The notes under the pieces are model-generated. The model was not told the DNA's origin. It did not search any database and was given only the letters and a program-made list of their open reading frames with translations. DNA of 64,000 nucleotides from Candidatus Hydrogenedens sp. (GTDB lineage: Bacteria > Hydrogenedentota > Hydrogenedentia > Hydrogenedentales > Hydrogenedentaceae): NCBI GenBank assembly GCA_049968235.1, contig JBMFRC010000013.1, forward strand, positions 1 to 64,000. Reading direction: 5' to 3'. The position numbers were made by a program, and so were the translations under genes. This document shows, in pieces, positions 47,511 through 63,404 of this stretch (positions within the stretch are counted from its first letter, which is position 1; every line of letters starts with the position of its first letter).

Positions 47511-47906
47511 TCATTGTTTACTTTCATTTTTATTCCGGTCTGATTCTAAAAAATAAGCCTTCTGTTTACAATGCCTATGGCAATGTCTACCACCACCACG
47601 CTCCTTCTGTCTGCAAACAAAATTGACAGGTCCCCCCATTATCCGAATGGGCTTCCCCTCTACAATAGCACCAACAATCTTCCTGCGTGCCTGCTCAATG
47701 ATTCGTGAAAATGTGGGGCGTGAGACTCCCATTTCTTGCCCCGCTTCTTCATGATACATTCCCAAATAATCAGCGAGACGGAGTGCTTCAAACTCATCCA
47801 GAGAAAGCACTACTGGCTCTCTTTCCATTCCTCCCTGTTCACAAGGAATGAATTCCTTAACGGGCGGGCATGCATTCAATCTTCGGGAACAATAGGGTCT
47901 TGCCAT
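47511..47906 (-). CDS. DUF134 (UPF0251) putative DNA-binding protein
   Basis: The N-terminus MARPYCSRRLNACPPVKEFIPCEQG matches the DUF134 M-P-R-P-x-K-x-R-R-V ... F-K-P signature. The central region has a sigma-70 region 4-like HTH. The C-terminus is Cys/His-rich. Confidence 0.7.
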   Translation of the reverse strand: MARPYCSRRLNACPPVKEFIPCEQGGMEREPVVLSLDEFEALRLADYLGMYHEEAGQEMGVSRPTFSRIIEQARRKIVGAIVEGKPIRIMGGPVNFVCRQKERGGGRHCHRHCKQKAYFLESDRNKNESKQ

Positions 47907-47935
47907 TATAATTCCTTTTTAATTTTCACGATTCA

Positions 47936-47955
47936 TTATGAACATATGTTCATAA
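47936..47955. promoter_or_regulatory. 20-bp perfect palindrome TTATGAACATATGTTCATAA, a candidate operator
   Basis: Read directly from the sequence. It lies about 30 bp upstream of the DUF134 start codon, in the divergent region shared with the aceE operon. Confidence 0.4.
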
Positions 47956-48115
47956 TTATAACGCAGTTTCGTAGCAAAAGTAAACAAAAATAACTAATTT
48001 TTTAGAAAGATACTCAAAAAAAAAAAAATAAATTAATCAATTAATTTGTTAGTATAATTGGATAATTAACATGGAATATTTAGTAAAATAAAAAAAAACA
48101 GAGGGGACGCTATTT

Positions 48116-50809
48116 ATGAGTAGTTCTGATTATAAAAATGAGATGCAAGAACAAATCAGTGCAATGACTTTTCCGGATGAAGAATGGATTGATGCATTAA
48201 AAGCCTATCTGGAAGAACGAGGTCCTCAGGCAACAGCAAAGTTGATTCGAAGACTTCAGGATTATACTTACCTTTTAGGTATTCGCAAGCCCTGCCCCGC
48301 AACTACGCCGTATGTTAATTCCATTCCTGTATCGGAACAGCCGGAATATCCAGGTAATCGTGAATTAGAACGAATTATTAAATCATATATCCGCTGGAAT
48401 GCAATGGCAATGGTAGTTCGTGCAAACCGCGAAGCAGATGGTATTGGGGGGCATATATCTACTTATGCTTCTGTAGCCACCCTATATGAAGTAGGATTTA
48501 ACCATTTTTTCAAGGCACGAACTGAAGACTACGGTGGTGATTTAATTTATTTTCAGGGACATGCTTCACCGGGAATATATGCACGAGCTTACTTAGAGGG
48601 ACGGCTTTCCGAGAATGACCTAAAAAACTTTCGACGCGAATTAAATAAAGGAGGAGGCTTGCCGTCATATCCACATCCACGACTTATGCCGGGATTCTGG
48701 CAATTCCCAACCGTTTCTATGGGACTGGGTCCTATTATGGCAATATATCAGGCACGGTTTAACAAATATTTAGAGAATCGGGGTTTGAAGCCTAAAAATG
48801 GTGGATATGTTTGGGCATTTTTGGGAGATGGCGAGACCGATGAGCCGGAAACATTAGGTGCTATTGGTTTAGCCAGTCGCGAGAAATTAGATAACCTAAT
48901 TTTCGTCATCAACTGTAACTTACAACGTTTAGATGGTCCTGTTCGTGGCAATGGAAAAATTATACAGGAGTTGGAAGCCATATTCCGCGGAGCAGGCTGG
49001 AATGTAATTAAAGTGGTTTGGGGTAGTGATTGGGACCCGCTATTTGAGAAGGATGAACATGGTTTATTGGTAAACGCATTAGGGGATATTGTTGATGGTG
49101 AGTATCAGAAATTTTCTGTTTCATCCGGGGAATATATTCGCAAAAAAATGATAGAACATGAACCGCGTCTGGCTCCGTATCTCGAACAGGTTTCAGATAT
49201 TCAATTACGCCAATTGCGTAGGGGTGGACATGACCCGGTAAAGGTATATTCTGCGTATTATCATGCGTTACAAACACAAGGGACTCCTACGGTAATATTG
49301 GCAAAGACAATCAAAGGATATGGACTTGGTGAAAGTGGCGAAGGGAAGAATATAACCCATCAACAAAAGAAACTCAATGAAGATGAACTACGCGAATTTC
49401 GGGCTCGCTTCGGGATTCCTGTCTCCGATGATGAGATTGCCTTCGCCCCGTTTTGTAAACCACCGGAAGACCATCCCGCTATGATATACCTCCAGGAACG
49501 ACGCAAGGCATTAGGCGGGTATTTGCCCCATCGCGATGTATTGGCACCGCCTTTACCTGCACCTGAAAACGAGCTGTTTGATGAGTTTTATAAAGGGACA
49601 CCTCGTCCCGTCTCCACAACGATGGCATTTGTTTCTATTTTACGAAAATTATTACAACATGAACGGATTGGCAAATTAATCGTTCCTATTGTGCCAGACG
49701 AAGCACGCACTTTCGGTATGGAAGGATTATTCCGTCAAATAGGAATTTATTCTTCGCAAGGACAAAAATACGAACCTGTAGATTCCGAATCGGTTCTGTA
49801 TTACAAAGAAACAACAGATGGGCAAATCCTTGAAGAAGGGATTTCAGAAGCAGGTTCAATGGCTTCTTTTATTTCTGCAGGAACCGCTTATGCCAGTCAT
49901 GGAATTAATACCATTCCTTTTTTCATCTTCTATTCTATGTTCGGATTTCAGCGGATTGGTGATTTAATCTGGGCATCTGCAGATATGAAAGTACGTGGAT
50001 TTCTCGTAGGTGGCACTGCGGGCAGAACAACCCTTGCCGGGGAAGGTCTGCAACATCAGGATGGACACAGTCACCTCCTCGCTATGTCTGTTCCCTGCCT
50101 TCGTGCATATGACCCCGCGTACGCCTACGAAATAGCCATTATTGTGCAGGAAGGCATTCGTAGCATGTATGAAAAGCAGGAACCGGTATTTTATTATTTA
50201 ACTGTGGGCAATGAAAACTACACCATGCCACCTATCCCGGCGGGGAAAAAAATACGCGATGGGATTATTAAAGGTTTATATCTACTTCGACCTTCTTCCT
50301 TAAAAAAATCAAAAATGAAAGTAAATTTATTAGGCAGTGGTTCATTACTTAATGAAGCACTAAAAGCACAGTTCGTTCTCGAAGAGGAATTTAATATCTC
50401 TGCAGATGTATGGAGTGCCACGAGTTATAAAATGCTCCGTGAAAATGCCCTGGAAACAGAACGCTGGAATCAGCTACATCCAATATCTACCAAAAAAATT
50501 CCGTATGTAACCGAATGCCTGAACAACAATGCACATGCAACCATTGCCGTTTCCGATTATGTAAAACTTGTTCCGGACAGTATATCCCGATGGGTTCCGC
50601 AAAGGTTTATATCCTTAGGAACAGATGGTTTTGGGCGTTCCGATACACGAGAAGCCCTGCGACATTACTTTGAGGTAGATAGCCGGTATATCATACTATC
50701 TGCCCTGTCTGCACTGGCTCAAGATAAGAAAATAGATACAAATATCGTAAAAAAATACATGCGGTCCGCAGATATACCTGCAAATAAAAAGTCTCCTATG
50801 GACTTATAA
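48116..50809 (+). CDS. aceE: Pyruvate dehydrogenase E1 component, homodimeric type
   Basis: 897 aa. A ThDP-binding GDGETDEPE region and overall E1p architecture are present. It is followed by E2 and E3. Confidence 0.9.
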   Translation: MSSSDYKNEMQEQISAMTFPDEEWIDALKAYLEERGPQATAKLIRRLQDYTYLLGIRKPCPATTPYVNSIPVSEQPEYPGNRELERIIKSYIRWNAMAMVVRANREADGIGGHISTYASVATLYEVGFNHFFKARTEDYGGDLIYFQGHASPGIYARAYLEGRLSENDLKNFRRELNKGGGLPSYPHPRLMPGFWQFPTVSMGLGPIMAIYQARFNKYLENRGLKPKNGGYVWAFLGDGETDEPETLGAIGLASREKLDNLIFVINCNLQRLDGPVRGNGKIIQELEAIFRGAGWNVIKVVWGSDWDPLFEKDEHGLLVNALGDIVDGEYQKFSVSSGEYIRKKMIEHEPRLAPYLEQVSDIQLRQLRRGGHDPVKVYSAYYHALQTQGTPTVILAKTIKGYGLGESGEGKNITHQQKKLNEDELREFRARFGIPVSDDEIAFAPFCKPPEDHPAMIYLQERRKALGGYLPHRDVLAPPLPAPENELFDEFYKGTPRPVSTTMAFVSILRKLLQHERIGKLIVPIVPDEARTFGMEGLFRQIGIYSSQGQKYEPVDSESVLYYKETTDGQILEEGISEAGSMASFISAGTAYASHGINTIPFFIFYSMFGFQRIGDLIWASADMKVRGFLVGGTAGRTTLAGEGLQHQDGHSHLLAMSVPCLRAYDPAYAYEIAIIVQEGIRSMYEKQEPVFYYLTVGNENYTMPPIPAGKKIRDGIIKGLYLLRPSSLKKSKMKVNLLGSGSLLNEALKAQFVLEEEFNISADVWSATSYKMLRENALETERWNQLHPISTKKIPYVTECLNNNAHATIAVSDYVKLVPDSISRWVPQRFISLGTDGFGRSDTREALRHYFEVDSRYIILSALSALAQDKKIDTNIVKKYMRSADIPANKKSPMDL

Positions 50810-50834
50810 CACATAATTAAAGAAGGAATAGACC

Positions 50835-52160
50835 ATGCCAAAGGAATTCCGATTACCCTCGCTGGGGGAAAATGTTGCAGAAGCAACTATTGGTAAGATT
50901 TTAGTAAAGGTTGGAGATATTATCCGTAAAGGACAGACTGTCTTGGAAATTGAAACGGATAAAGCGGTGGCAGAAATACCCTCTTCGCAGGAGGGTAAAA
51001 TACTAGAAATCCATGTGAAGGAAGGGCAAAAAGTAAAGCCCGGCATCTTAATTTTTACTATAGAGGAGATAACAGGGACGAGCACACCACCTCCTGAGCC
51101 TGTTTCTACACCTGAAGGGGGAAAAGTATCTCCACCAAAACAAGAAAGGCTTGTTTCTCCTCTTGTCGAAAAACCTGTGCCATTACGACCTTCTTCAGTT
51201 TCGGTAGTCGCAAGTCAAAAAGCAACATCGAATATTCCCATTTTGGCTTCCCCATCGGTTCGTAGATTGGCACGCGAATTAGGAGTTTCACTTGAAGAAG
51301 TCCCTGCATCGGACACGTCCGGAAAAATCTCTACGGAAGATGTTATTGCGTATCATAAGAGAAAGACAGAAAATATAGCGATAGTGGAAACGGAGATAAG
51401 CCATGATATGCCCACATCTGAATCTGCAGAAGAGATAGATATATCATCTTCCAAAGATTCCTGGGGACCTGTGGTTATTGAACCGATGAGTACCATTCGC
51501 AAAAAAACCGCGGAACAAATGATGCGTAGTTGGTCTGCTCCACACGTAACCCATTTTGATAAAGCGAATATAACGCAATTGGAAGAACTCCGTGAGGCAT
51601 GGTCAAAGAAAATTCAATCCGCCGGCGGTAGATTAAGCGTACTCATTTTTACATTGAAAGTCGTTGCCGAAGCATTAAAAAAATTCCCAAAGTTTAATAC
51701 CAGCATTGACCTCGAAAAAGAACAAATTATCTATAAAAAATATTATCATATCGGTGTTGCGGTTGATACAGAATACGGACTTCTGGTTCCTGTCCTGCGA
51801 AATGTGGATAAGAAGTCAATTAAAGAACTTTCTATTGAACTCCCAAAATTAGCGGAGAAAGCCCGACAACGGAAATTAACTTTAGAAGAATTGCAGGGTG
51901 CCACATTCACTATAAGTAATTTAGGCGGTTTAGGGGGTACTGGCTTTACACCGATTATAAATGCGCCACAGGTGGCTATTTTGGGGATGTCCCGTTCCAG
52001 TATGGAACCTATATACCAAAATGGTAGTTTTATTCCACAACTCATGCTACCTTTAAGTTTGTCGTATGACCATCGTGTTATCGATGGAGCAGAGTCCGCT
52101 CGTTTTGTTCGCTGGATTTGTAATGCTCTTGAAAATCCATGGAATATATTTCTTGAATAA
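50835..52160 (+). CDS. aceF: Dihydrolipoamide acetyltransferase E2 (single lipoyl domain)
   Basis: A lipoyl-lysine motif EIETDKAV, a peripheral subunit-binding domain (SPSVRRLAREL), and the catalytic C-terminal DHRVIDGA are present. Confidence 0.85.
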   Translation: MPKEFRLPSLGENVAEATIGKILVKVGDIIRKGQTVLEIETDKAVAEIPSSQEGKILEIHVKEGQKVKPGILIFTIEEITGTSTPPPEPVSTPEGGKVSPPKQERLVSPLVEKPVPLRPSSVSVVASQKATSNIPILASPSVRRLARELGVSLEEVPASDTSGKISTEDVIAYHKRKTENIAIVETEISHDMPTSESAEEIDISSSKDSWGPVVIEPMSTIRKKTAEQMMRSWSAPHVTHFDKANITQLEELREAWSKKIQSAGGRLSVLIFTLKVVAEALKKFPKFNTSIDLEKEQIIYKKYYHIGVAVDTEYGLLVPVLRNVDKKSIKELSIELPKLAEKARQRKLTLEELQGATFTISNLGGLGGTGFTPIINAPQVAILGMSRSSMEPIYQNGSFIPQLMLPLSLSYDHRVIDGAESARFVRWICNALENPWNIFLE

Positions 52161-52188
52161 TTAAGAATTACAAACAGAAGGAGGTCTT

Positions 52189-53616
52189 ATGCCCGAAGTA
52201 ATTCAAACACAGGTTGCAGTCATTGGTGCAGGTCCGGGTGGTTATGGATGCGCCTTTATGTGTGCCGATTTAGGACTACAAACGGTTCTTATCGATGTAG
52301 AAAAGAATCCAGGCGGGACATGCCTCTATCGAGGTTGTATCCCAACAAAATCTTTACTCCACATATCTCATGTAATTTCCAATGCGTTAGAGGCAAAAAA
52401 ATTTGGCGTTCACTTCCAGAAACCAAAATTAGATATTAATGAAATACGAAAAAATGTGCAGGGTGTCGTCGAACACTTAACCGGTGGTTTGGGTCAACTA
52501 ACGAAGTTACGAAATATTAATTATGTTCAGGGACGAGCCAGTTTCCTGGATTCAAACACATTAGAAGTTTTCTTGATGGATGGTCGAGAATTACGTATCC
52601 ATGCAGAATATACTGTCATTTCTGCTGGTTCGAGACCCGCCTTATTTGGACAACCTATTGATTCGCCAGATATTATGAATTCCAATACTGCTATCAACAT
52701 AGAGGATATACCCGAACGATTACTGGTTATTGGTGGTGGATATATCGGGCTGGAATTAGGTACTGTTTATGCCACTTTAGGCTCTGAAGTAACACTCGTG
52801 GAGGTTACTGATGGACTACTCCCCGGTGTTGACCGTGATTTAGTGCGTCCTTTAGAAAAACATTTAGAAAATGTTATATATCAAATCCATTTAAAAACAC
52901 TGGTCAAACAATTAAAACCGCAAAAGAAAGGTATTTCTGTTGAACTGGAAGGTGCGGAAATAAAAAAAACACAACAGATTTTTGATAAGGTTCTTGTATC
53001 AGTTGGCAGAAAACCCAATAGTAGCGGTTTAGGTTTAAAAAATACAAATGTGTCTGTGGACGAAAAAGGATTTATCCGTGTTGACGAACAAAGACACACA
53101 ACTGACCCCTATATCTTTGCCATTGGCGATGTTGCAGGAGGACCTATGTTAGCCCATAAAGCAACACATGAGGGACGAGTTGTTGCAGAGGTCATCTCCG
53201 GCAAGAATGTCGCCTTTGAACCGCAAGCTATCCCTGCTGTTGTTTTCACTGACCCTGAAATTGCGTGGTGTGGACTTACCGAAGAACAAGCACGCTCAAA
53301 AAATATACCCGTTCAAGTATCAAGATTCCCATGGTCTGCTTCTGGCAGAGCCATGACAATGTTCCGTGGGGAGGGATTGACAAAACTCATAACCCATGCA
53401 GAAACACAACAAATTCTCGGTTTCGGTATCGTCGGAGCCAATGCTGGTGAACTTATCGGTGAAGCTACATTGGCTATTGAGATGGGTGCGACGCTCGAAG
53501 ACCTCGACTTAACCATACACCCGCATCCTACTCTCAGTGAAACCATCATGGAATCTGCAGGTGCTTTACTCGGTAAAAGTACCCATGTTTACCGCAAACC
53601 CCAACGAAAAGAATAA
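52189..53616 (+). CDS. lpd: Dihydrolipoyl dehydrogenase E3
   Basis: FAD-binding VIGAGPGGY, a redox-active disulfide GGTCLYRGCIPTK, and a C-terminal HPHPTLSE are present. Confidence 0.9.
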   Translation: MPEVIQTQVAVIGAGPGGYGCAFMCADLGLQTVLIDVEKNPGGTCLYRGCIPTKSLLHISHVISNALEAKKFGVHFQKPKLDINEIRKNVQGVVEHLTGGLGQLTKLRNINYVQGRASFLDSNTLEVFLMDGRELRIHAEYTVISAGSRPALFGQPIDSPDIMNSNTAINIEDIPERLLVIGGGYIGLELGTVYATLGSEVTLVEVTDGLLPGVDRDLVRPLEKHLENVIYQIHLKTLVKQLKPQKKGISVELEGAEIKKTQQIFDKVLVSVGRKPNSSGLGLKNTNVSVDEKGFIRVDEQRHTTDPYIFAIGDVAGGPMLAHKATHEGRVVAEVISGKNVAFEPQAIPAVVFTDPEIAWCGLTEEQARSKNIPVQVSRFPWSASGRAMTMFRGEGLTKLITHAETQQILGFGIVGANAGELIGEATLAIEMGATLEDLDLTIHPHPTLSETIMESAGALLGKSTHVYRKPQRKE

Positions 53617-53632
53617 ACTCCGGACAAATTGA

Positions 53633-54154
53633 CTATCCTTCATTATCGTTCATCTTATCTTCCTCATCAGGTCTTTTTATATACGTATCAATCCCATATT
53701 TATCATAAACATTAAAAATCTCCTCGCAAAACTGTATAATCCGCATATCACTTTTCTCTTTTGCTTCATTATAAAGCCTTATTATAAACCGTTTCCCAAA
53801 CTCCGTTTGAGAATAATTCTTCTTTAAATAATTATTCACCGAACATAATGTTTGTCCATTTTCAACAGAATTTGTCCCTCCTTTATCCAGCGGAATCCTA
53901 TGGTCCACATGTATCTCCACACCATCTTCCCTACCCCTTACACAAACCACACAACGATAATTGTCCCTCTCAAATATTTCTTCCTTCACTGAATCAGTAA
54001 ATTCAAATAACTCCCTTTTCTGAACCAAATCGGGGTCATATTTATAGACCCCTTTTTTTTCCTTTATTAGCCACCCACTTTGATGTAATTTTCGAATCCC
54101 CCACCAGGGATCTCTCGGTTTTCTCCCATACAACTTTTTATATTGTTCTTCCAC
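53633..54154 (-). CDS. HNH endonuclease
   Basis: The HNH motif is CVVCVRGREDGVEIHVDHRIPLDKGGTNSVENGQTLCSVNN. GTG start. It lies 100 bp downstream of the methyltransferase pseudogene on the same strand. Confidence 0.7.
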   Translation of the reverse strand: MEEQYKKLYGRKPRDPWWGIRKLHQSGWLIKEKKGVYKYDPDLVQKRELFEFTDSVKEEIFERDNYRCVVCVRGREDGVEIHVDHRIPLDKGGTNSVENGQTLCSVNNYLKKNYSQTEFGKRFIIRLYNEAKEKSDMRIIQFCEEIFNVYDKYGIDTYIKRPDEEDKMNDNEG

Positions 54155-54255
54155 CTAATCTACAACGGGTCCATGAGATAATTATTTTTTCGGATGAGAA
54201 ATAAAATATTCCATTATCAGGTCTTCAATACTAATATACTTCGACTCTTCCACTT

Positions 54256-55058
54256 CTATTCAGCCTTCCTTACCATATCGAACCTTAACTGGTCAATCTC
54301 TACCTCTTTTAACAACCGTTGTTTTGCTATTTTGCAATAGTTTTCATCTATTTCAATACCAATTCCTTTCCTATTCGTTGTGGCACATGCAAGAAGAGTT
54401 GTCCCGCTTCCTAAAAAGGGGTCTAATACCGTATCCCCGACAAAAGTAAACAATTTAATACATCGTCTTGGCAATTCAAGTGGAAACGGTGCCGGATGAC
54501 CAATTCTCGTTTTGCTTTCTCCCATAAAAGTCCAAAACCCATTGGTCCACTGGACAAATTCATCTTTTGTTATGTCTGACTCTCCACTTCCACTTGTTTT
54601 TTTCCAATTATTTTTATACAGCACTGCTATCATTTCCACAGGAGCAATTACATACGGTGCCGAAGCAGATAACCATGAACCCCATGCGGTTCTTCAGGAA
54701 ATATTTTGTTCATTCCAAACAATTGCAGAATGGTATTTATAACCTATCTTTTTTGCGATAGTTATTACATCCGCAAATACACTTTGCTGTCCACCTTTGT
54801 TCTTATCCAATGGAATATTTAAACAAAACCTTCCGTCTCCTTTTAATACTCTATACGCTTTATCAAGCCAATTTGCCGTAAATGCCAGATATTCTTTATA
54901 CGAAACTGTATCGTTATATGAATTATAACTAATATCTACATTATACGGAGGGGAAGTTATAATCAAATCGATAGAATTCTCTTCAACACAATCCGTTACC
55001 AGGAAATCTGCATTGTAAATCTGCAGATTATTTCTTTCAAAATAAGTTTTTCTTTCAT
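54256..55058 (-). pseudogene. Disrupted beta-class DNA methyltransferase (SPPY motif IV followed by motif I DPFLGSGTT; probably N4-cytosine type)
   Basis: Hand translation shows NEQNIS-TGA-RTAWGSW, with the TGA in the same frame between ORFs 54694..54966 and 54256..54639. The expected N-terminal strand IYNADFLVTDCVEENSIDLIITSPPY is out of frame with the only upstream ATG (MKEKLILKEIICRF ...), which indicates an additional frameshift near an A-run. Confidence 0.6.
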
Positions 55059-55197
55059 GCTAAACACACCTCAAATCATTATTAACACAATCATACCATT
55101 ATAATACCCCTTTTAACTTGCCTATACAAAATATTTACCTACCCGATGTATTGCTTCCTATTTACTATCATCTCATTTTCTTGTATCCCATTTTACT

Positions 55198-56952
55198 TTA
55201 TTTATTTTCTGCAATCCTTTTTACTTTATCCGGCAATTTTTCTCTGTATTTGTCGGTGTATAGTCCGATTTGAGCAAAGGGGATGGGGTCGAAATTAAAT
55301 CCTGATGTGATTAATATATCTTTATTTATCTCAAAATTTCCCTGTGTGAATTGAGGAAATAAGGCGTCGTCGTTATTAACTAGATTATCCTCGAAAATAA
55401 TTTGGGATGCTTCCATTTTTCTCATGACTTCGTTGCATTTCCAGAATATATTTCTTCTCACGGTATTCTTATTTCTGTCCTCATAAATGTTTACTATTTC
55501 CGGATATTTTTGAACATACAAGTTGTAATCTATATCGGGCTTATTAAGGGCATCATTCACAATGTTTCTCCATTCTTCTTCGGTGCAGGTCTGAAAAGTA
55601 ACGCCAATAAAACAATCCGCAAAGATATTATTTTCTATCAGGTTATCCTTACCTCCATTTACCTGAACGCCACCGAAAATGCCCTCCTTAGCACATGCTT
55701 TATAAAACACATTCCCGTAAATCTTCACACCTGAGATAGGAAAATCCAGCCGAACTCCTCCCTGTAAAGGCAGACCAGGCTTGTCCCAATTCCCGATATG
55801 ATGCCAGTAGTTGTAGCGATATATCATACCGCGATAAGTGGGATTCCCATAACTATCCAAGCCACCCTGGTCATCTGATTCCTGAACCACATCGCAAACC
55901 TCATTATATTCAACAAGAATATCATTTCCATCCATACGGAAAGCACTGCTCGGATTCTTATGCACAAAATTATGGGAAATCACATGTCCTACACCTTCTC
56001 CATACACCGCTGGTTTGTAAGTATGGTCAACACGGGCTAAATCATAAAAATAGCAGTTATCTACTTTGAACCCACTTGAGGTTAACGTTTTACGGTTACC
56101 CCCTTTCAAAAATACACCCCCTTTCCCTAAAGTCTCGAAGTCACAAGATTGGACACAATGGTTTTTTCCTCCATCTACGGCAACCCCATAGCCTCCACTC
56201 TGGCTAAAAGAACAACCCAATATTCGGATATCCTCTCCCTCAAAAATCTCTATTAGATTTCCAGAACTCAGTTTAAAATGTAATCCTTCTACATAGATAT
56301 GGCTCGCATCTTCAAATGTAAACATGGGTCCCTCAAACCATGAAAACTCAATAACTGCTCCATCCATATTTGCGGGCGGATAAAAATATAGGAGCATATT
56401 TTCCCTATCCAGATACCATTCACCGGGCTGGTCCAATTCACACAATAGGTTAAGAGCATAAAATCTTGCCCCTTCCTTATACCCATAAGCCGAAGCAGAT
56501 TGAGCCAATTTTATTTCCCTTTTATCCAGGTCAATCGAACCTATATATTCATAAGAATCCGACCAATCGTAATGCCAATATCCATGCAATAGAACATTAG
56601 GCTCATTTACCCAATTTTGAAGTGGGCAGTTCTCTACTTTGATTTTTACATTTGTCATTGTAGAAAATCCCGGTAATCGTTCAACAGTCTCTCCTTCTAC
56701 TCCCGCAACATGAAGGAAACCCTCATTGGGATACCTTGCTAATGTCATAGCCTGCCCATTGAAAAATATCTCTACATATGGGAAAGCGGTATATCCTTTA
56801 TAACCGCGGTCCTTCTGACGTAATTCCAGATTTCCAAATCCACCTAACTTCAACGGAGGGAGAGATTTTAATCCATACTCTTTCATATCTGCCACATAAA
56901 GTTTCTCCCATATTTCCTTTTTAATCCTACCTGAGGCATCTACTTCTCTCAT
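55198..56952 (-). CDS. Right-handed parallel beta-helix repeat protein (pectate-lyase-fold, probable glycan-active enzyme)
   Basis: 584 aa with repeated beta-helix coil motifs (NCYFYD, HNFVHKN, GNVFYK, NNIFAD). Confidence 0.6.
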   Translation of the reverse strand: MREVDASGRIKKEIWEKLYVADMKEYGLKSLPPLKLGGFGNLELRQKDRGYKGYTAFPYVEIFFNGQAMTLARYPNEGFLHVAGVEGETVERLPGFSTMTNVKIKVENCPLQNWVNEPNVLLHGYWHYDWSDSYEYIGSIDLDKREIKLAQSASAYGYKEGARFYALNLLCELDQPGEWYLDRENMLLYFYPPANMDGAVIEFSWFEGPMFTFEDASHIYVEGLHFKLSSGNLIEIFEGEDIRILGCSFSQSGGYGVAVDGGKNHCVQSCDFETLGKGGVFLKGGNRKTLTSSGFKVDNCYFYDLARVDHTYKPAVYGEGVGHVISHNFVHKNPSSAFRMDGNDILVEYNEVCDVVQESDDQGGLDSYGNPTYRGMIYRYNYWHHIGNWDKPGLPLQGGVRLDFPISGVKIYGNVFYKACAKEGIFGGVQVNGGKDNLIENNIFADCFIGVTFQTCTEEEWRNIVNDALNKPDIDYNLYVQKYPEIVNIYEDRNKNTVRRNIFWKCNEVMRKMEASQIIFEDNLVNNDDALFPQFTQGNFEINKDILITSGFNFDPIPFAQIGLYTDKYREKLPDKVKRIAENK

Positions 56953-56970
56953 CTTCTTAAAATTCTTTAT

Positions 56971-57345
56971 CTAAATTCCACCGCTGATTATGTTTTCTGA
57001 TTTATCTTCTGTGGTAATAATAATCGGTTTCCCTTCTTCTCCACTATGCTCTTTTGTAAAAACTACTCTATCGGTTATTTTATATTCCCCTTTTTGCAGG
57101 ACAATTTTTACCCCTTTTTCTGGGAATTTACCATTCTTTTTCAGTCCACCTATATAATTCAGGACTTCTTGAAATGTATTAAAAGATACCCCTTTATCAA
57201 ATGCTTCCTTGTTATCATTTACAGGCAAAACGCGGATTCTTTTTTGATAGGATAGTTCAGAGGCATACAGGAAATATCCATTTCCCATAAGAAAAAGTGC
57301 ACAAACCCAGAGCACACCAAAACGAAAAATATCCTTCGGCTTCAT
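56971..57345 (-). CDS. Hypothetical secreted / membrane-anchored small protein
   Basis: It has a hydrophobic N-terminus and lies 18 bp upstream of the beta-helix gene on the same strand. Confidence 0.4.
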   Translation of the reverse strand: MKPKDIFRFGVLWVCALFLMGNGYFLYASELSYQKRIRVLPVNDNKEAFDKGVSFNTFQEVLNYIGGLKKNGKFPEKGVKIVLQKGEYKITDRVVFTKEHSGEEGKPIIITTEDKSENIISGGI

Positions 57346-61879: not shown

Positions 61880-61929
61880 CTTGTCCATGTTGTAATGCGG
61901 TGTAGTATTAATACGAACCTGTGTAGATA

Positions 61930-62421
61930 TTATCCGACTTTAATCTGGATACGGTGTGCTTTTGCAGATTCGCTCTTGGGCAGACGAATCTGTAAGACAC
62001 CGTTTTTGTAATTTGCCTCGGCTTTCTCAGCGATAATCTCACAAGGCAAAGGAATAACGCGGGAGAAAGAACCATATTGACATTCCGCATAATAGTATGA
62101 ACGGTCTTTCTTTTCCTGCTGGAATTTCTTTTCACCCCGCAGGATAAGTCTCTGCCCTTGAAGCTCAACCTTAAAATCGTTTTCAGATAAGCCGGGCATT
62201 TCTGCGTTAATAATAACTTCGTCATTGTTTTCTTCGACATCCACCGCAGGGAATGTAGTGGTATTAAACCAGTCGAAGAAAACAGGTTCATGCGTGAGCC
62301 AATTCCCCGAGTCCTTACGGGTTGTTAAGAAACGGTCAAACCAATTGTTGAGGGTTTGACGCAAATCATTTATCTTTTCTTTTATCTGGATAGGGACTAA
62401 TGTGTTACGCATAAACCTCAC
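61930..62421 (-). CDS. Hsp20 / alpha-crystallin family small heat-shock protein
   Basis: Alpha-crystallin domain motifs are VDVEENNDEVIINAEMPGLSENDFKVEL ... GVLQIRLPK. RBS aaggaggtg. Confidence 0.85.
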   Translation of the reverse strand: MRFMRNTLVPIQIKEKINDLRQTLNNWFDRFLTTRKDSGNWLTHEPVFFDWFNTTTFPAVDVEENNDEVIINAEMPGLSENDFKVELQGQRLILRGEKKFQQEKKDRSYYYAECQYGSFSRVIPLPCEIIAEKAEANYKNGVLQIRLPKSESAKAHRIQIKVG

Positions 62422-62440
62422 CTCCTTTTATTGTTCAAGT

Positions 62441-62469
62441 GGGCAGATTCGTTGTATGCGAACCTGCCC
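62441..62469 (-). promoter_or_regulatory. Stable hairpin in the 5' leader between Hsp20 genes 2 and 1
   Basis: gggcagattcg-ttgtatg-cgaacctgccc (10/11 bp stem). On the minus strand it is immediately followed by the RBS aaggaggtg and the ATG. There is no T-run after it on the minus strand, so I do not read it as a simple terminator. Confidence 0.35.
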
Positions 62470-62477
62470 TTTTATTA

Positions 62478-62867
62478 TTAACTAACGGTAATCGGTATTT
62501 GTTTGGGTTTGGCTTCTTCTTTCTTGGGTAAGTGGATAATTAATACACCATTTTTCATTTCAGCCTTGATTTTCTCCTGGTCCGTCTTATCGCTTAACTG
62601 GAACTGACGGAAGTAAGGATATAGGTCAAATTCCTGATAAGTCAGGTCGACATTCAAATTACTTTTTGCACCTGCTTTAATAGTCAGAATGTCGTTCTCC
62701 ACCTGAATCTGGACATCCTCTTTCTGGACACCGGGCAAATCTGCGATGACAGTTAAGCCCTCGGCGGTTTCAAAGATGTCCACAGGTGGTCGGAGTGTCT
62801 TTGAACTGTCCCGTGTATCGGGAACATGTTTGGATTGTGTCTTGACGGGAATTGTTGTTTCTTTCAT
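62478..62867 (-). CDS. Hsp20 / alpha-crystallin family small heat-shock protein
   Basis: Alpha-crystallin domain motifs are VDIFETAEGLTVIADLPGVQKEDVQIQV ... GVLIIHLPK. The ATG at 62867 has an RBS aggaggtg; the track start at 62876 is GTG. Confidence 0.85.
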   Translation of the reverse strand: MKETTIPVKTQSKHVPDTRDSSKTLRPPVDIFETAEGLTVIADLPGVQKEDVQIQVENDILTIKAGAKSNLNVDLTYQEFDLYPYFRQFQLSDKTDQEKIKAEMKNGVLIIHLPKKEEAKPKQIPITVS

Positions 62868-62896
62868 AGCCAACACCTCCTTTTTGTTATGGGTTA

Positions 62897-63361
62897 TTAT
62901 TTTACACTTATTGATATTTGTTTGGGTTTTGCGGATTCGGCTTTAGGTAGAGTTAACAGAAGAATACCGTTCTTATACTCTGCTTTTACTTTGTCAGCAT
63001 CTACTTCGACAGGAAGTGATAATGTGCGGATAAATTTACCAGCACCACGCTCATTGCGATGGAATGCCTCCGGTTTTACATCCTTTATTGCAGGTTTCTC
63101 TCCTGCAATACGCACGGTATTATTCAGCACGGAGACTTCCAACGACTCAGGGTCAATACCCGGAGCCAATGCCTCCACATAAACATTATCCTTATCCTCT
63201 GCAAGATTGACAAGAGGATAAGAGCGAGTGGAGACACCCGGCAAGAACGAGAAACGGAATGACGGGATGTCCCAGACATCCTCATTGAAAATACGGAACA
63301 AATCATCCATCTCGCGTCTGAGTTGCTCTAACTCTTGAATTGGGTCCCACCATCTTCTCAT
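62897..63361 (-). CDS. Hsp20 / alpha-crystallin family small heat-shock protein
   Basis: Alpha-crystallin domain motifs are VNLAEDKDNVYVEALAPGIDPESLEVSV ... GILLLTLPK. RBS aaaggaggt with 7-nt spacing. Confidence 0.85.
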   Translation of the reverse strand: MRRWWDPIQELEQLRREMDDLFRIFNEDVWDIPSFRFSFLPGVSTRSYPLVNLAEDKDNVYVEALAPGIDPESLEVSVLNNTVRIAGEKPAIKDVKPEAFHRNERGAGKFIRTLSLPVEVDADKVKAEYKNGILLLTLPKAESAKPKQISISVK

Positions 63362-63404
63362 AGGTCATACCTCCTTTGGTTAAGGTTTACTTTTTTTCTA
63401 TGTT

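What the first reader, a model, noticed from the sequence alone, without database searches (positions are those of the whole stretch)
53617..55197. Degraded restriction-modification remnant: a methyltransferase with an in-frame TGA and N-terminal frameshift next to an apparently intact HNH endonuclease
Hand translation of the minus strand shows the beta-class MTase (motif IV SPPY then motif I DPFLGSGTT; SPPY suggests an N4-cytosine type) is interrupted by TGA in the same reading frame (...NEQNIS * RTAWGSW...). Its conserved N-terminal strand (IYNADFLVTDCVEENSIDLIITSPPY) is out of frame with the only upstream ATG. TGA is a genuine stop in this genome: it ends lgt, the sigma factor and fliQ, and it is the stop of many ORF-track genes. 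So recoding is unlikely. The HNH nuclease gene 100 bp downstream looks intact. An active restriction enzyme without its methylase would be lethal, so either the HNH protein is inactive or methyl-dependent (Type IV-like), or the MTase is expressed by readthrough or frameshifting. The island sits between lpd and a beta-helix gene, consistent with horizontal acquisition.
Basis: seen in the sequence. Interest (0 to 1): 0.5.

Follow-up and report, generated by a model that had tools for sequence, protein, structure and literature searches.

The report
Dead restriction-modification gene pair

Summary
There is an in-frame TGA at 54694-54696, where homologues have Arg, and a 1-nt deletion in codon 5 (CCT to CT, at 55046/55047). 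The claim that the neighbouring HNH nuclease is intact is wrong. Intact homologues are about 197-211 aa and start 2 nt after the MTase stop. The window copy has in-frame TAA (codon 24) and TAG (codon 33) in its winged-helix domain. It also has substitutions at near-invariant HNH positions (G105V, A116V, E139V, H140N). The "100-bp gap" is the dead 5' end of the nuclease gene.

A second assembly (GCA_049971155.1, 99.86% identical) has all four lesions, so they are not errors of one assembly. Related Candidatus Hydrogenedens genomes carry the intact pair at the same syntenic place.

On the window's branch the nuclease shows 14 amino-acid changes to 3 synonymous, and the MTase 4 to 18 (Fisher p = 9e-5). 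The nuclease therefore decayed first, the MTase persisted under selection, and it died recently. Among 32 related loci, 3 have only the nuclease broken, 2 have both broken, and none has only the MTase broken.

This is the textbook decay route for restriction-modification systems. There is no lethality paradox and no recoding. Interest is low.

The parts
54256..55058 (-). Pseudogene of a beta-class N4/N6 DNA methyltransferase. The ancestral gene had 267 codons. The ATG is at 55058-55056 and the stop TAG at 54256-54258.
   Evidence: Pfam PF01555 at 3e-49. It is 92% identical to the intact 267-aa P0121 of Candidatus Hydrogenedens sp.. tblastn with the intact relative covers residues 4-267.
55045..55047 (-). 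Frameshift site. One C of codon 5 is missing (CCT to CT). The ATG frame then runs into TAA at 54996-54998 after 20 codons.
   Evidence: DNA alignment to L002. Codon 5 is CCT in L002, L005 and L007. Translations.
54694..54696 (-). In-frame TGA replacing the Arg of NISRRTAWGSW (codon 122). The relatives have AGG, AGA or CGT.
53633..54253 (-). Pseudogene of a winged-helix + HNH restriction endonuclease. The ancestral GTG start is at 54253-54251, 2 nt after the MTase stop. The stop is at 53633-53635.
   Evidence: Homologues of 197-211 aa align from residue 1. The junction is identical to that of the intact relative L002. Pfam PF01844 scores 31.5 bits.
54182..54184 (-). In-frame TAA at HNH codon 24 (GAA/GAC in the relatives).
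54155..54157 (-). In-frame TAG at HNH codon 33 (TGG, a conserved Trp, in the relatives). The GTG immediately after it begins the 173-aa residual ORF.
53834..53842 (-). Mutated core of the HNH motif: CSEHNF has become CSVNNY. E139V and H140N (CAT to AAT) hit positions that are invariant in 119 homologues.
53906..53941 (-). Two further substitutions at conserved nuclease positions: G105V (CVVCG to CVVCV) and A116V (IHADH to IHVDH).
53633..54154 (-). Residual 173-aa ORF.
   Evidence: P0001 is named 'HNH endonuclease' in GCA_049971155.1.

Best explanation
The interval holds a fully decayed Type II restriction-modification operon. It comprised a beta-class amino-methyltransferase (SPPY motif IV, so probably N4-cytosine) followed 2 nt later by a small nuclease made of a winged-helix domain and an HNH domain. 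Neither gene can now make a full-length protein.

Shown:
- The MTase has a 1-nt deletion in codon 5 and a nonsense codon at position 122.
- The nuclease has nonsense codons at positions 24 and 33, and it has replacements at near-invariant HNH positions.
- The same lesions are present in a second assembly of the same species.
- Related species keep the intact pair at the same locus.

Inferred order of events:
1. The pair was acquired by an ancestor of these Hydrogenedens lineages.
2. In the window's lineage the nuclease was inactivated first and then drifted neutrally.
3. The MTase was kept under purifying selection as a solitary methylase for most of the time since the split from the nearest intact relative.
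4. The MTase was lost only recently.

Because the nuclease died first, the later loss of methylation carried no cost.
For: **Lesions and homology.**

**Second assembly.** L001 is 99.86% identical over 7.2 kb. It has 6 SNPs of its own, and none of them removes a lesion.

**Intact syntenic pairs.**
- L002, L003 and L004 carry an MTase of 267 aa and an HNH of 209 aa.
- L005 and L007 also carry the intact pair.

**Conserved-column test.**
- The nuclease differs from the consensus at 6 of 90 columns that are at least 95% conserved. The mean for the 120 other sequences is 1.37, only 1 of them reaches 6, and the intact sister has 0.
- The MTase differs at 2 of 133 such columns, against a mean of 1.46.

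**Changes unique to the window's branch (amino-acid : synonymous).**
- Four taxa: MTase 4:18, HNH 14:3 (Fisher p = 9e-5), neighbouring epimerase gene 12:15.
- Three taxa: MTase 8:26, HNH 24:9, epimerase 21:43.
- Pairwise dN/dS against L002: MTase 0.043, HNH 0.19.

**Structure.** The AlphaFold2 model of an intact homologue (pLDDT 82) places codons 24 and 33 inside the N-terminal winged helix, residues 9-71.

**Family survey.** Of 32 loci with a linked HNH:
- 27 are intact;
- 3 have only the HNH broken;
- 2 have both genes broken;
- none has only the MTase broken.

**Literature.** The 'nuclease first, then methylase' decay route is the published model (PMC3424554).
Against: - The branch counts are small.
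- Synonymous sites are saturated between the more distant lineages, so the timing is semi-quantitative.
- No reads, methylome or expression data were available.
- The role of H140 as a zinc ligand is inferred from the CxxC...CxxH-N pattern of zinc-containing HNH nucleases. It was not measured.
- The 173-aa residual ORF is still open, so a residual activity is not formally excluded.
- The independence of the two assemblies is inferred only from their SNP differences.
Confidence: 0.9

Rival explanations
1. The stops and the frameshift are sequencing or assembly errors, and the organism has an intact, working R-M system.
For: The frameshift lies next to a short A5 run. The sister assembly does have one extra A in an A6 run elsewhere, so homopolymer errors or polymorphisms occur in these data.
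Against: - All four lesions are shared by a second assembly that differs at 6 SNPs and a 4-nt indel.
- Three of the four lesions are base substitutions, not homopolymer indels.
- The nuclease also carries an excess of missense changes at invariant positions, which errors would not produce.
Confidence: 0.02
2. The MTase is still expressed, through programmed readthrough of TGA plus ribosomal frameshifting or through phase-variable slippage. The system is switched rather than dead.
For: The MTase coding sequence is otherwise nearly unblemished: dN/dS is 0.043, and it differs at only 2 of 133 conserved columns.
Against: - No relative has a stop or a shifted start at these positions. Nearly all of 120 homologues have Arg, with Lys in a few.
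- Two independent lesions would both have to be bypassed.
- The tract at the deletion is only A5 followed by C, far shorter than known contingency tracts.
- TGA is an ordinary stop in this genome.
- The good preservation is explained equally well by recent inactivation.
Confidence: 0.02
3. The 173-aa HNH remnant is a functioning protein. It could be a methyl-dependent (Type IV-like) or non-specific nuclease, or a DNA-binding protein, retained after loss of the N-terminus.
For: The ORF is still open for 173 codons and keeps the D-H general-base pair and N141. Public annotation calls it an HNH endonuclease.
Against: - It lacks helix 1, the first strand and half of helix 2 of the winged-helix domain.
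- Positions 139 and 140, invariant Glu and His in 119 homologues, are changed.
- Its own branch shows 14 amino-acid changes to 3 synonymous, close to the neutral expectation of about 4:1.
- Intact relatives lie directly behind the MTase gene, as in Type II systems. They are not standalone like McrA.
Confidence: 0.05
4. Both genes were inactivated at about the same time. An example would be relaxed selection on the whole island, which includes the neighbouring beta-helix gene. In that case there was no solitary-methylase phase.
For: Five disabling mutations cluster in three adjacent genes between 53.6 and 57.0 kb.
Against: - The amino-acid:synonymous ratios of MTase and HNH on the same branch differ sharply (4:18 against 14:3, p = 9e-5).
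- In the family survey, broken HNH with intact MTase occurs 3 times and the reverse never occurs.
Confidence: 0.1

Closest known systems
Type II restriction-modification systems with an HNH (beta-beta-alpha-Me) nuclease, e.g. KpnI, Hpy99I and PacI (recalled from general knowledge, not tested here)
   Same: - A small HNH nuclease is encoded directly next to, and co-oriented with, its methyltransferase.
- The sequence pattern is CxxC ... DH ... N ... CxxH-N.
- The intact relatives have this architecture.
   Different: - No detectable sequence similarity to any solved restriction enzyme. The best PDB sequence hits are the HNH domains of IscB at E about 1e-3.
- Fold search matches only at domain level: Gme HNH (4h9d), EcoKMcrA, and winged helices.
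- The recognition sequence is unknown.
- The window copy is a pseudogene.
Beta-class N4-cytosine/N6-adenine DNA methyltransferases (Pfam PF01555). The nearest solved structure is the Thermus thermophilus putative modification methylase, 2zie.
   Same: - Motif IV lies before motif I, and the match to the Pfam model is full length.
- The profile matches 2zie at 4e-32.
- Motif IV is SPPY, as in cytosine-N4 enzymes, whereas the adenine enzyme CcrM has DPPY (PMC10406627).
   Different: - The reading frame is broken twice.
- Target base and target sequence are untested.
- All NCBIfam equivalog scores are far below their cut-offs.
Published decay pathway of R-M systems: nuclease lost first, then a solitary methylase, then full loss (Seshasayee et al. 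2012, PMC3424554)
   Same: The window shows the end state, and its substitution pattern records the order. Sister loci in the same family show the intermediate states.
   Different: Nothing in kind. This is one more instance, in an uncultured Hydrogenedens lineage.
EcoKMcrA-type (Type IV) modification-dependent HNH nucleases
   Same: Several sources label the homologues 'McrA'. There is a weak domain-level fold match to 6ghc.
   Different: Intact relatives are encoded directly behind a methyltransferase gene. They have a winged-helix N-terminal domain, not the McrA N-terminal reader domain. The PDB sequence match to McrA has E = 0.97.

Membership tests
Type II R-M system (MTase + cognate nuclease operon) | Methyltransferase and nuclease genes are adjacent and co-oriented | tested here: met
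   In the window the MTase stop is at 54256-54258 and the ancestral HNH start is at 54253. The same 2-nt junction occurs in L002. The linked pair occurs at 32 of the 76 surveyed loci that have enough downstream sequence, and on plasmid pCALNI01.
Type II R-M system (MTase + cognate nuclease operon) | Both genes have intact reading frames able to give full-length enzymes | tested here: not met
   The MTase has a 1-nt deletion and a TGA. The HNH gene has a TAA and a TAG.
Type II R-M system (MTase + cognate nuclease operon) | Sequence-specific cleavage that is blocked by the cognate methylation | not testable with these tools
   This needs biochemistry on the intact relatives.
Beta-class amino-MTase (PF01555 N6_N4_Mtase) | Profile match above the curated threshold, with motif IV (S/D/N)PP(Y/F) N-terminal to motif I (FxGxG) | tested here: met
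   168.4 bits against a cut-off of 26.7, covering profile positions 1-221. TSPPY precedes DPFLGSGTT.
N4-cytosine-specific MTase | SPP(Y/F) rather than (D/N)PP(Y/F) in motif IV | tested here: met
   TSPPYN is conserved across the 121-sequence alignment: T, P, P, Y and N are invariant, and S is at least 90% conserved. The contrast between SPPY and DPPY is described in PMC10406627. This is a heuristic only.
N4-cytosine-specific MTase | Demonstrated m4C product | not testable with these tools
   This needs a methylome or an enzyme assay. JGI labels the homologues 'adenine-specific', so the target base is unresolved.
HNH nuclease (PF01844) | Profile match above the curated threshold | tested here: met
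   31.5 bits against a cut-off of 21.4.
HNH nuclease (PF01844) | Conserved metal and zinc ligand set of this family (C101, C104, D117-H118, N132, C137, H140, N141) is retained | tested here: not met
   H140 is replaced by Asn, and the adjacent E139 by Val. Both are invariant in 119 homologues. Assigning H140 as a zinc ligand is an inference.
Type IV methyl-dependent nuclease (McrA-like) | Standalone nuclease without a cognate MTase, with a modification-reading domain | tested here: not met
   Close homologues sit directly behind the MTase gene. The N-terminal domain is a winged helix. The McrA sequence match has E = 0.97.
Programmed recoding (stop readthrough or frameshift) | The same stop or shift is conserved in relatives | tested here: not met
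   Relatives have Arg (a few Lys) at codon 122 and CCT at codon 5. Only the conspecific second assembly shares the lesions.
Phase-variable (contingency) R-M gene | A long homopolymer or short tandem repeat at the frameshift site | tested here: not met
   The site is A5 followed by a single C. The additional nonsense codon cannot be reverted by slippage.

The most novel reading that the evidence does not exclude
After its nuclease died, the methyltransferase was retained under strong purifying selection for most of the divergence from the nearest intact relative (dN/dS 0.04). It may therefore have had a host function of its own, either epigenetic regulation or protection against re-invasion by the same R-M family, which this lineage gave up only recently. 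A weaker variant is that the 173-aa nuclease remnant, or the clustering of five disabling mutations in three adjacent genes, has a biological cause.
Probability: 0.15. Interest if true: 0.3.

Novelty: new member of a known kind. Interest (0 to 1): 0.12.

Why it matters
It matters little beyond annotation hygiene, for three reasons.

- **Annotation.** A residual ORF with a good HNH Pfam hit was called an intact endonuclease by both a careful reader and a public annotation pipeline. The length and start position of homologues show that it is a pseudogene.
- **Evolution.** The locus is a clean, datable example of the accepted decay order of restriction-modification systems: nuclease first, solitary methylase next, full loss last. 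Intact, half-decayed and fully decayed copies are all available in the same protein family.
- **Uncharacterised family.** The underlying winged-helix-HNH + SPPY-methylase pair is widespread in Bacteria and Archaea and has no characterised member that I could find. The intact relatives, not this copy, might interest enzyme hunters.

Tried and rejected
- **Assembly error.** Rejected. The sister assembly GCA_049971155.1 shares all lesions.
- **Alternative genetic code or recoding.** Rejected. All three stop codons terminate long ORFs, and relatives have sense codons at the lesion sites.
- **A second, intact copy in the window that could supply methylation.** None found by tblastn. The rest of the genome could not be searched.
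- **A close solved restriction enzyme.** None found. PDB sequence search gave only weak HNH-domain hits to IscB and a maturase. Foldseek gave only domain-level matches, all with E > 1e-3.
- **NCBIfam.** It gave only sub-threshold hits. The 'guided_IscB' hit of 42.8 bits against a cut-off of 175 reflects the shared HNH domain only.
- **Phage origin.** No phage record covers at least 80% of the nuclease.
- **Exact look-up of the window's own 173-aa product.** It found nothing, so the window's source assembly was not identified. The species assignment rests on 99.9% identity to GCA_049971155.1.
- **Failed control.** A codon comparison of the Cys/Met-metabolism gene was set up with the wrong orientation (row 'CYS') and is disregarded.
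- **False positives in the survey.** L017 and L070 were flagged as 'MTase broken / HNH intact'. In L017 the alignment ran over the true stop codon. In L070 the MTase is cut by the contig end.

Full report
**What is in the sequence**

On the minus strand between lpd (stop at 53614-53616) and a beta-helix gene (stop at 55198-55200) lie two co-oriented genes.

The upstream gene is a beta-class amino-methyltransferase (MTase).
- Pfam PF01555 scores 168.4 bits against a cut-off of 26.7, over the full length of the profile.
- Motif IV (TSPPY) lies upstream of motif I (DPFLGSGTT).
- The conserved frame reads ...VWNEQNIS*RTAWGSW..., with TGA at 54694-54696.
- That frame has no start codon upstream of the SPPY strand.
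- The only ATG (55058-55056) is in another frame and reaches a stop after 20 codons.

TGA is also a normal stop here. Among 36 open frames of at least 250 codons in the window, 22 end in TAA, 11 in TAG and 3 in TGA.

**The nuclease gene is not intact**

Translating further upstream in the same frame gives VEESKYISIEDLIMEYFISHPKK*LSHGPVVD*VEEQYKK.... A database search with this 206-residue reconstruction found 1331 homologues.
- Nearly all are 196-211 aa long and cover 92-97% of the query. They therefore include the region that holds the two stops.
- In the alignment the TAG (54155-54157) replaces a conserved Trp, and the TAA (54182-54184) replaces Glu or Asp.
- The ancestral start is the GTG at 54253, 2 nt after the MTase stop. 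The junction sequence is identical to that of an intact relative.

The "100-bp gap" is therefore the dead 5' end of the nuclease gene.

The remaining ORF also carries substitutions in the conserved core.
- CVVCG has become CVVCV.
- IHADH has become IHVDH.
- CSEHNF has become CSVNNY.
- E139 and H140 are invariant in 119 homologues.

By analogy with zinc-containing HNH nucleases (pattern CxxC...DH...N...CxxC/H-N; general knowledge, not tested here), H140 is probably the fourth zinc ligand.

An AlphaFold2 model of an intact homologue was built (mean pLDDT 82).
- It shows a winged helix at residues 9-71, the HNH domain at 87-146, and C-terminal helices.
- The two stops fall inside the winged helix.
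- The 173-aa ORF lacks helix 1, the first strand and half of helix 2.
- Fold search returned only domain-level matches: Gme HNH (4h9d), EcoKMcrA, and winged helices of cullins and forkhead proteins.

**The lesions are real, not errors of one assembly**

The closest database protein, P0001, is a 173-aa "HNH endonuclease" from a Candidatus Hydrogenedens sp. MAG.
- Its contig (GCA_049971155.1, JBMFLO010000114.1 = L001) aligns to window 47845-55093 at 99.86% identity, with 6 SNPs and one 4-nt indel.
- None of these differences touches the frameshift, the TGA, the TAA or the TAG.
- All four lesions, and the missense changes, are therefore present in a second assembly that has SNPs of its own.

**What the ancestral state was**

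The best MTase homologue is P0121: 92% identical, 267 aa, intact, from Candidatus Hydrogenedens sp..
- It lies on three contigs (L002-L004).
- On each of them it is followed after 2 nt by an intact 209-aa HNH gene.

Two further lineages also carry intact pairs: L005 (ERZ6864144) and L007 (GCA_900175155.1).

In the lineages whose contigs reach that far (L002/L003, L005, L007), and in the window, the upstream neighbours are the same:
- a PALP-CBS enzyme;
- a Cys/Met-metabolism enzyme;
- an NAD-dependent epimerase;
- the beta-helix gene, except in L007, which lacks it.

The pair is therefore an old resident of this site and has decayed only in the window's lineage.

Codon comparison identifies the individual events.

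| Gene | Codon | Relatives | Window |
|---|---|---|---|
| MTase | 5 | CCT | CT (one C lost) |
| MTase | 122 | AGA / AGG / CGT | TGA |
| HNH | 24 | GAA / GAC | TAA |
| HNH | 33 | TGG | TAG |
| HNH | 140 | CAT | AAT |

**Order of decay**

Three tests bear on which gene was inactivated first.

1. Conserved columns. I counted differences from the consensus at alignment columns that are at least 95% conserved among 120 homologues.
   - The window nuclease differs at 6 of 90 columns: R51W, V65E, A116V, E139V, H140N and H191Y.
   - The other sequences average 1.37. Only one of the 120 reaches 6. The intact sister L002 has 0.
   - The window MTase differs at 2 of 133 columns, against a mean of 1.46.
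2. Branch-specific changes. In four-taxon codon alignments I counted changes unique to the window where the other three agree. A three-taxon version gives the same picture.

   | Gene | Four taxa (amino-acid : synonymous) | Three taxa | dN/dS vs L002 |
   |---|---|---|---|
   | MTase | 4 : 18 | 8 : 26 | 0.043 |
   | HNH | 14 : 3 | 24 : 9 | 0.19 |
   | Epimerase (control) | 12 : 15 | 21 : 43 | 0.088 |

   MTase against HNH gives Fisher p = 9e-5.
3. Family survey. I surveyed 80 species-representative genomes that carry an MTase of this family. They span many bacterial phyla and several archaeal groups. Of these, 32 have a linked HNH of this family.
   - 27 pairs are intact.
   - 3 have an intact MTase and a broken HNH: L032 (frameshift), and L034 and L040 (only the N-terminal part remains).
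   - 2 have both genes broken: L058 and L061.
   - None has a broken MTase with an intact HNH.

Together these indicate that the nuclease was inactivated first and then drifted. The MTase stayed under purifying selection as a solitary enzyme and was disabled only recently. This is the decay pathway already proposed for R-M systems (PMC3424554). It removes the "lethal nuclease without methylase" paradox.

- Recoding or readthrough is not supported. Relatives have ordinary sense codons at both MTase lesion sites. Two independent lesions would have to be bypassed. The tract at the deletion (A5 then C) is too short for phase variation.
- A Type IV-like, methyl-dependent nuclease is not supported. 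Intact homologues are encoded immediately behind the MTase gene, including on plasmid pCALNI01 of Calditerrivibrio nitroreducens next to an IS256-family transposase. The window copy is in any case truncated and mutated.
- The SPPY-to-N4-cytosine inference is a reasonable heuristic. The cytosine-N4 enzyme N4CMT has SPPY, whereas the adenine enzyme CcrM has DPPY (PMC10406627). It is untested here. The nearest solved structure is the T. thermophilus putative methylase 2zie, at E = 4e-32.
- Horizontal acquisition is true of the family as a whole but ancient in this clade. G+C is 0.36-0.38 in the pair against about 0.39-0.44 in the flanking genes.

**Comparison with what is known, and verdict**

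This locus works like, or rather once worked like, a Type II R-M system with a beta-class amino-MTase and an HNH nuclease.
- It meets the sequence-level criteria for both protein families.
- It fails the criteria of intact frames and a complete HNH ligand set.
- It is therefore a pseudogenised member.
- The nuclease family (winged helix + HNH + helical tail) has no close solved or, as far as I could find, characterised relative. That concerns the intact homologues elsewhere, not this remnant.

The finding is ordinary: a fully decayed R-M cassette that followed the expected order of loss. Its main practical lesson is that the residual 173-aa ORF is mis-annotated as an intact HNH endonuclease in the public sister assembly.

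Noticed in passing
window 55198-57345 (minus strand); stop codon at 56971-56973: The neighbouring beta-helix gene (PF13229 in the relatives, where it is 695-701 aa) is split into 124-aa and 584-aa ORFs. The cause is an in-frame TAG where relative L002 has CAG (SGGI*IKNFKK against SGGIQIKNFKK). This is a third disrupted gene, directly adjacent to the dead R-M pair. The sister assembly shares the TAG and also has an extra A (A7 against A6) near window 56167. The amino-acid:synonymous ratio on the window's branch (77:85) is only mildly higher than in the relatives. L007 lacks this gene altogether.
   Followed up: partly
window 53616-53633, compared with L002-L004 and L005: Synteny breaks exactly at the 3' end of the HNH gene. 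The window has the convergent lpd gene of the pyruvate dehydrogenase operon 16 nt away. The nearest relatives have a FAD-linked oxidase and a glutamine amidotransferase there, and L005 has an ankyrin-repeat gene. The oxidase and the amidotransferase are not anywhere in the window (tblastn). The upstream flank is conserved in the lineages whose contigs reach it.
   Followed up: partly
L001 940-1461 (GCA_049971155.1, JBMFLO010000114.1): The public annotation of the sister assembly calls the truncated 173-aa remnant an 'HNH endonuclease' CDS and calls no MTase gene. The pseudogene state is therefore hidden in the database record.
   Followed up: yes
L061 116-3951 (CALITO010000007.1): In this uncultured bacterium the homologous MTase is interrupted after about residue 72 by a 2.7-kb insertion. 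The insertion carries two genes, of 216 aa and 619 aa. The 619-aa protein has a GHKL-ATPase-like N-terminus as judged by eye. The 3' part of the MTase is fused in frame to the C-terminal HNH domain in a single 323-aa ORF.
   Followed up: no
L058 3001-4390 (WOR-3 bacterium, CBFGJO010000014.1); L032, L034, L040: These are other decayed copies of the same R-M family. L058 has a scrambled segment with six stops in the MTase and two in-frame stops in the HNH gene. L032 has a frameshifted HNH gene. L034 and L040 keep only the N-terminal part of the HNH gene next to an intact MTase.
   Followed up: partly
L007 2008-4278 (GCA_900175155.1): A second gene pair lies a few kb upstream of the intact R-M pair in this relative. 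It comprises a 427-aa protein with a faint PF01555 hit and a 327-aa protein without any Pfam hit. It may be another R-M system inserted in the same neighbourhood.
   Followed up: no
window 61900-63400: A cluster of short, partly overlapping ORFs (118-163 aa) on both strands stands out from the long, densely packed genes elsewhere in the window. I did not check whether these are small genes or further gene fragments.
   Followed up: no
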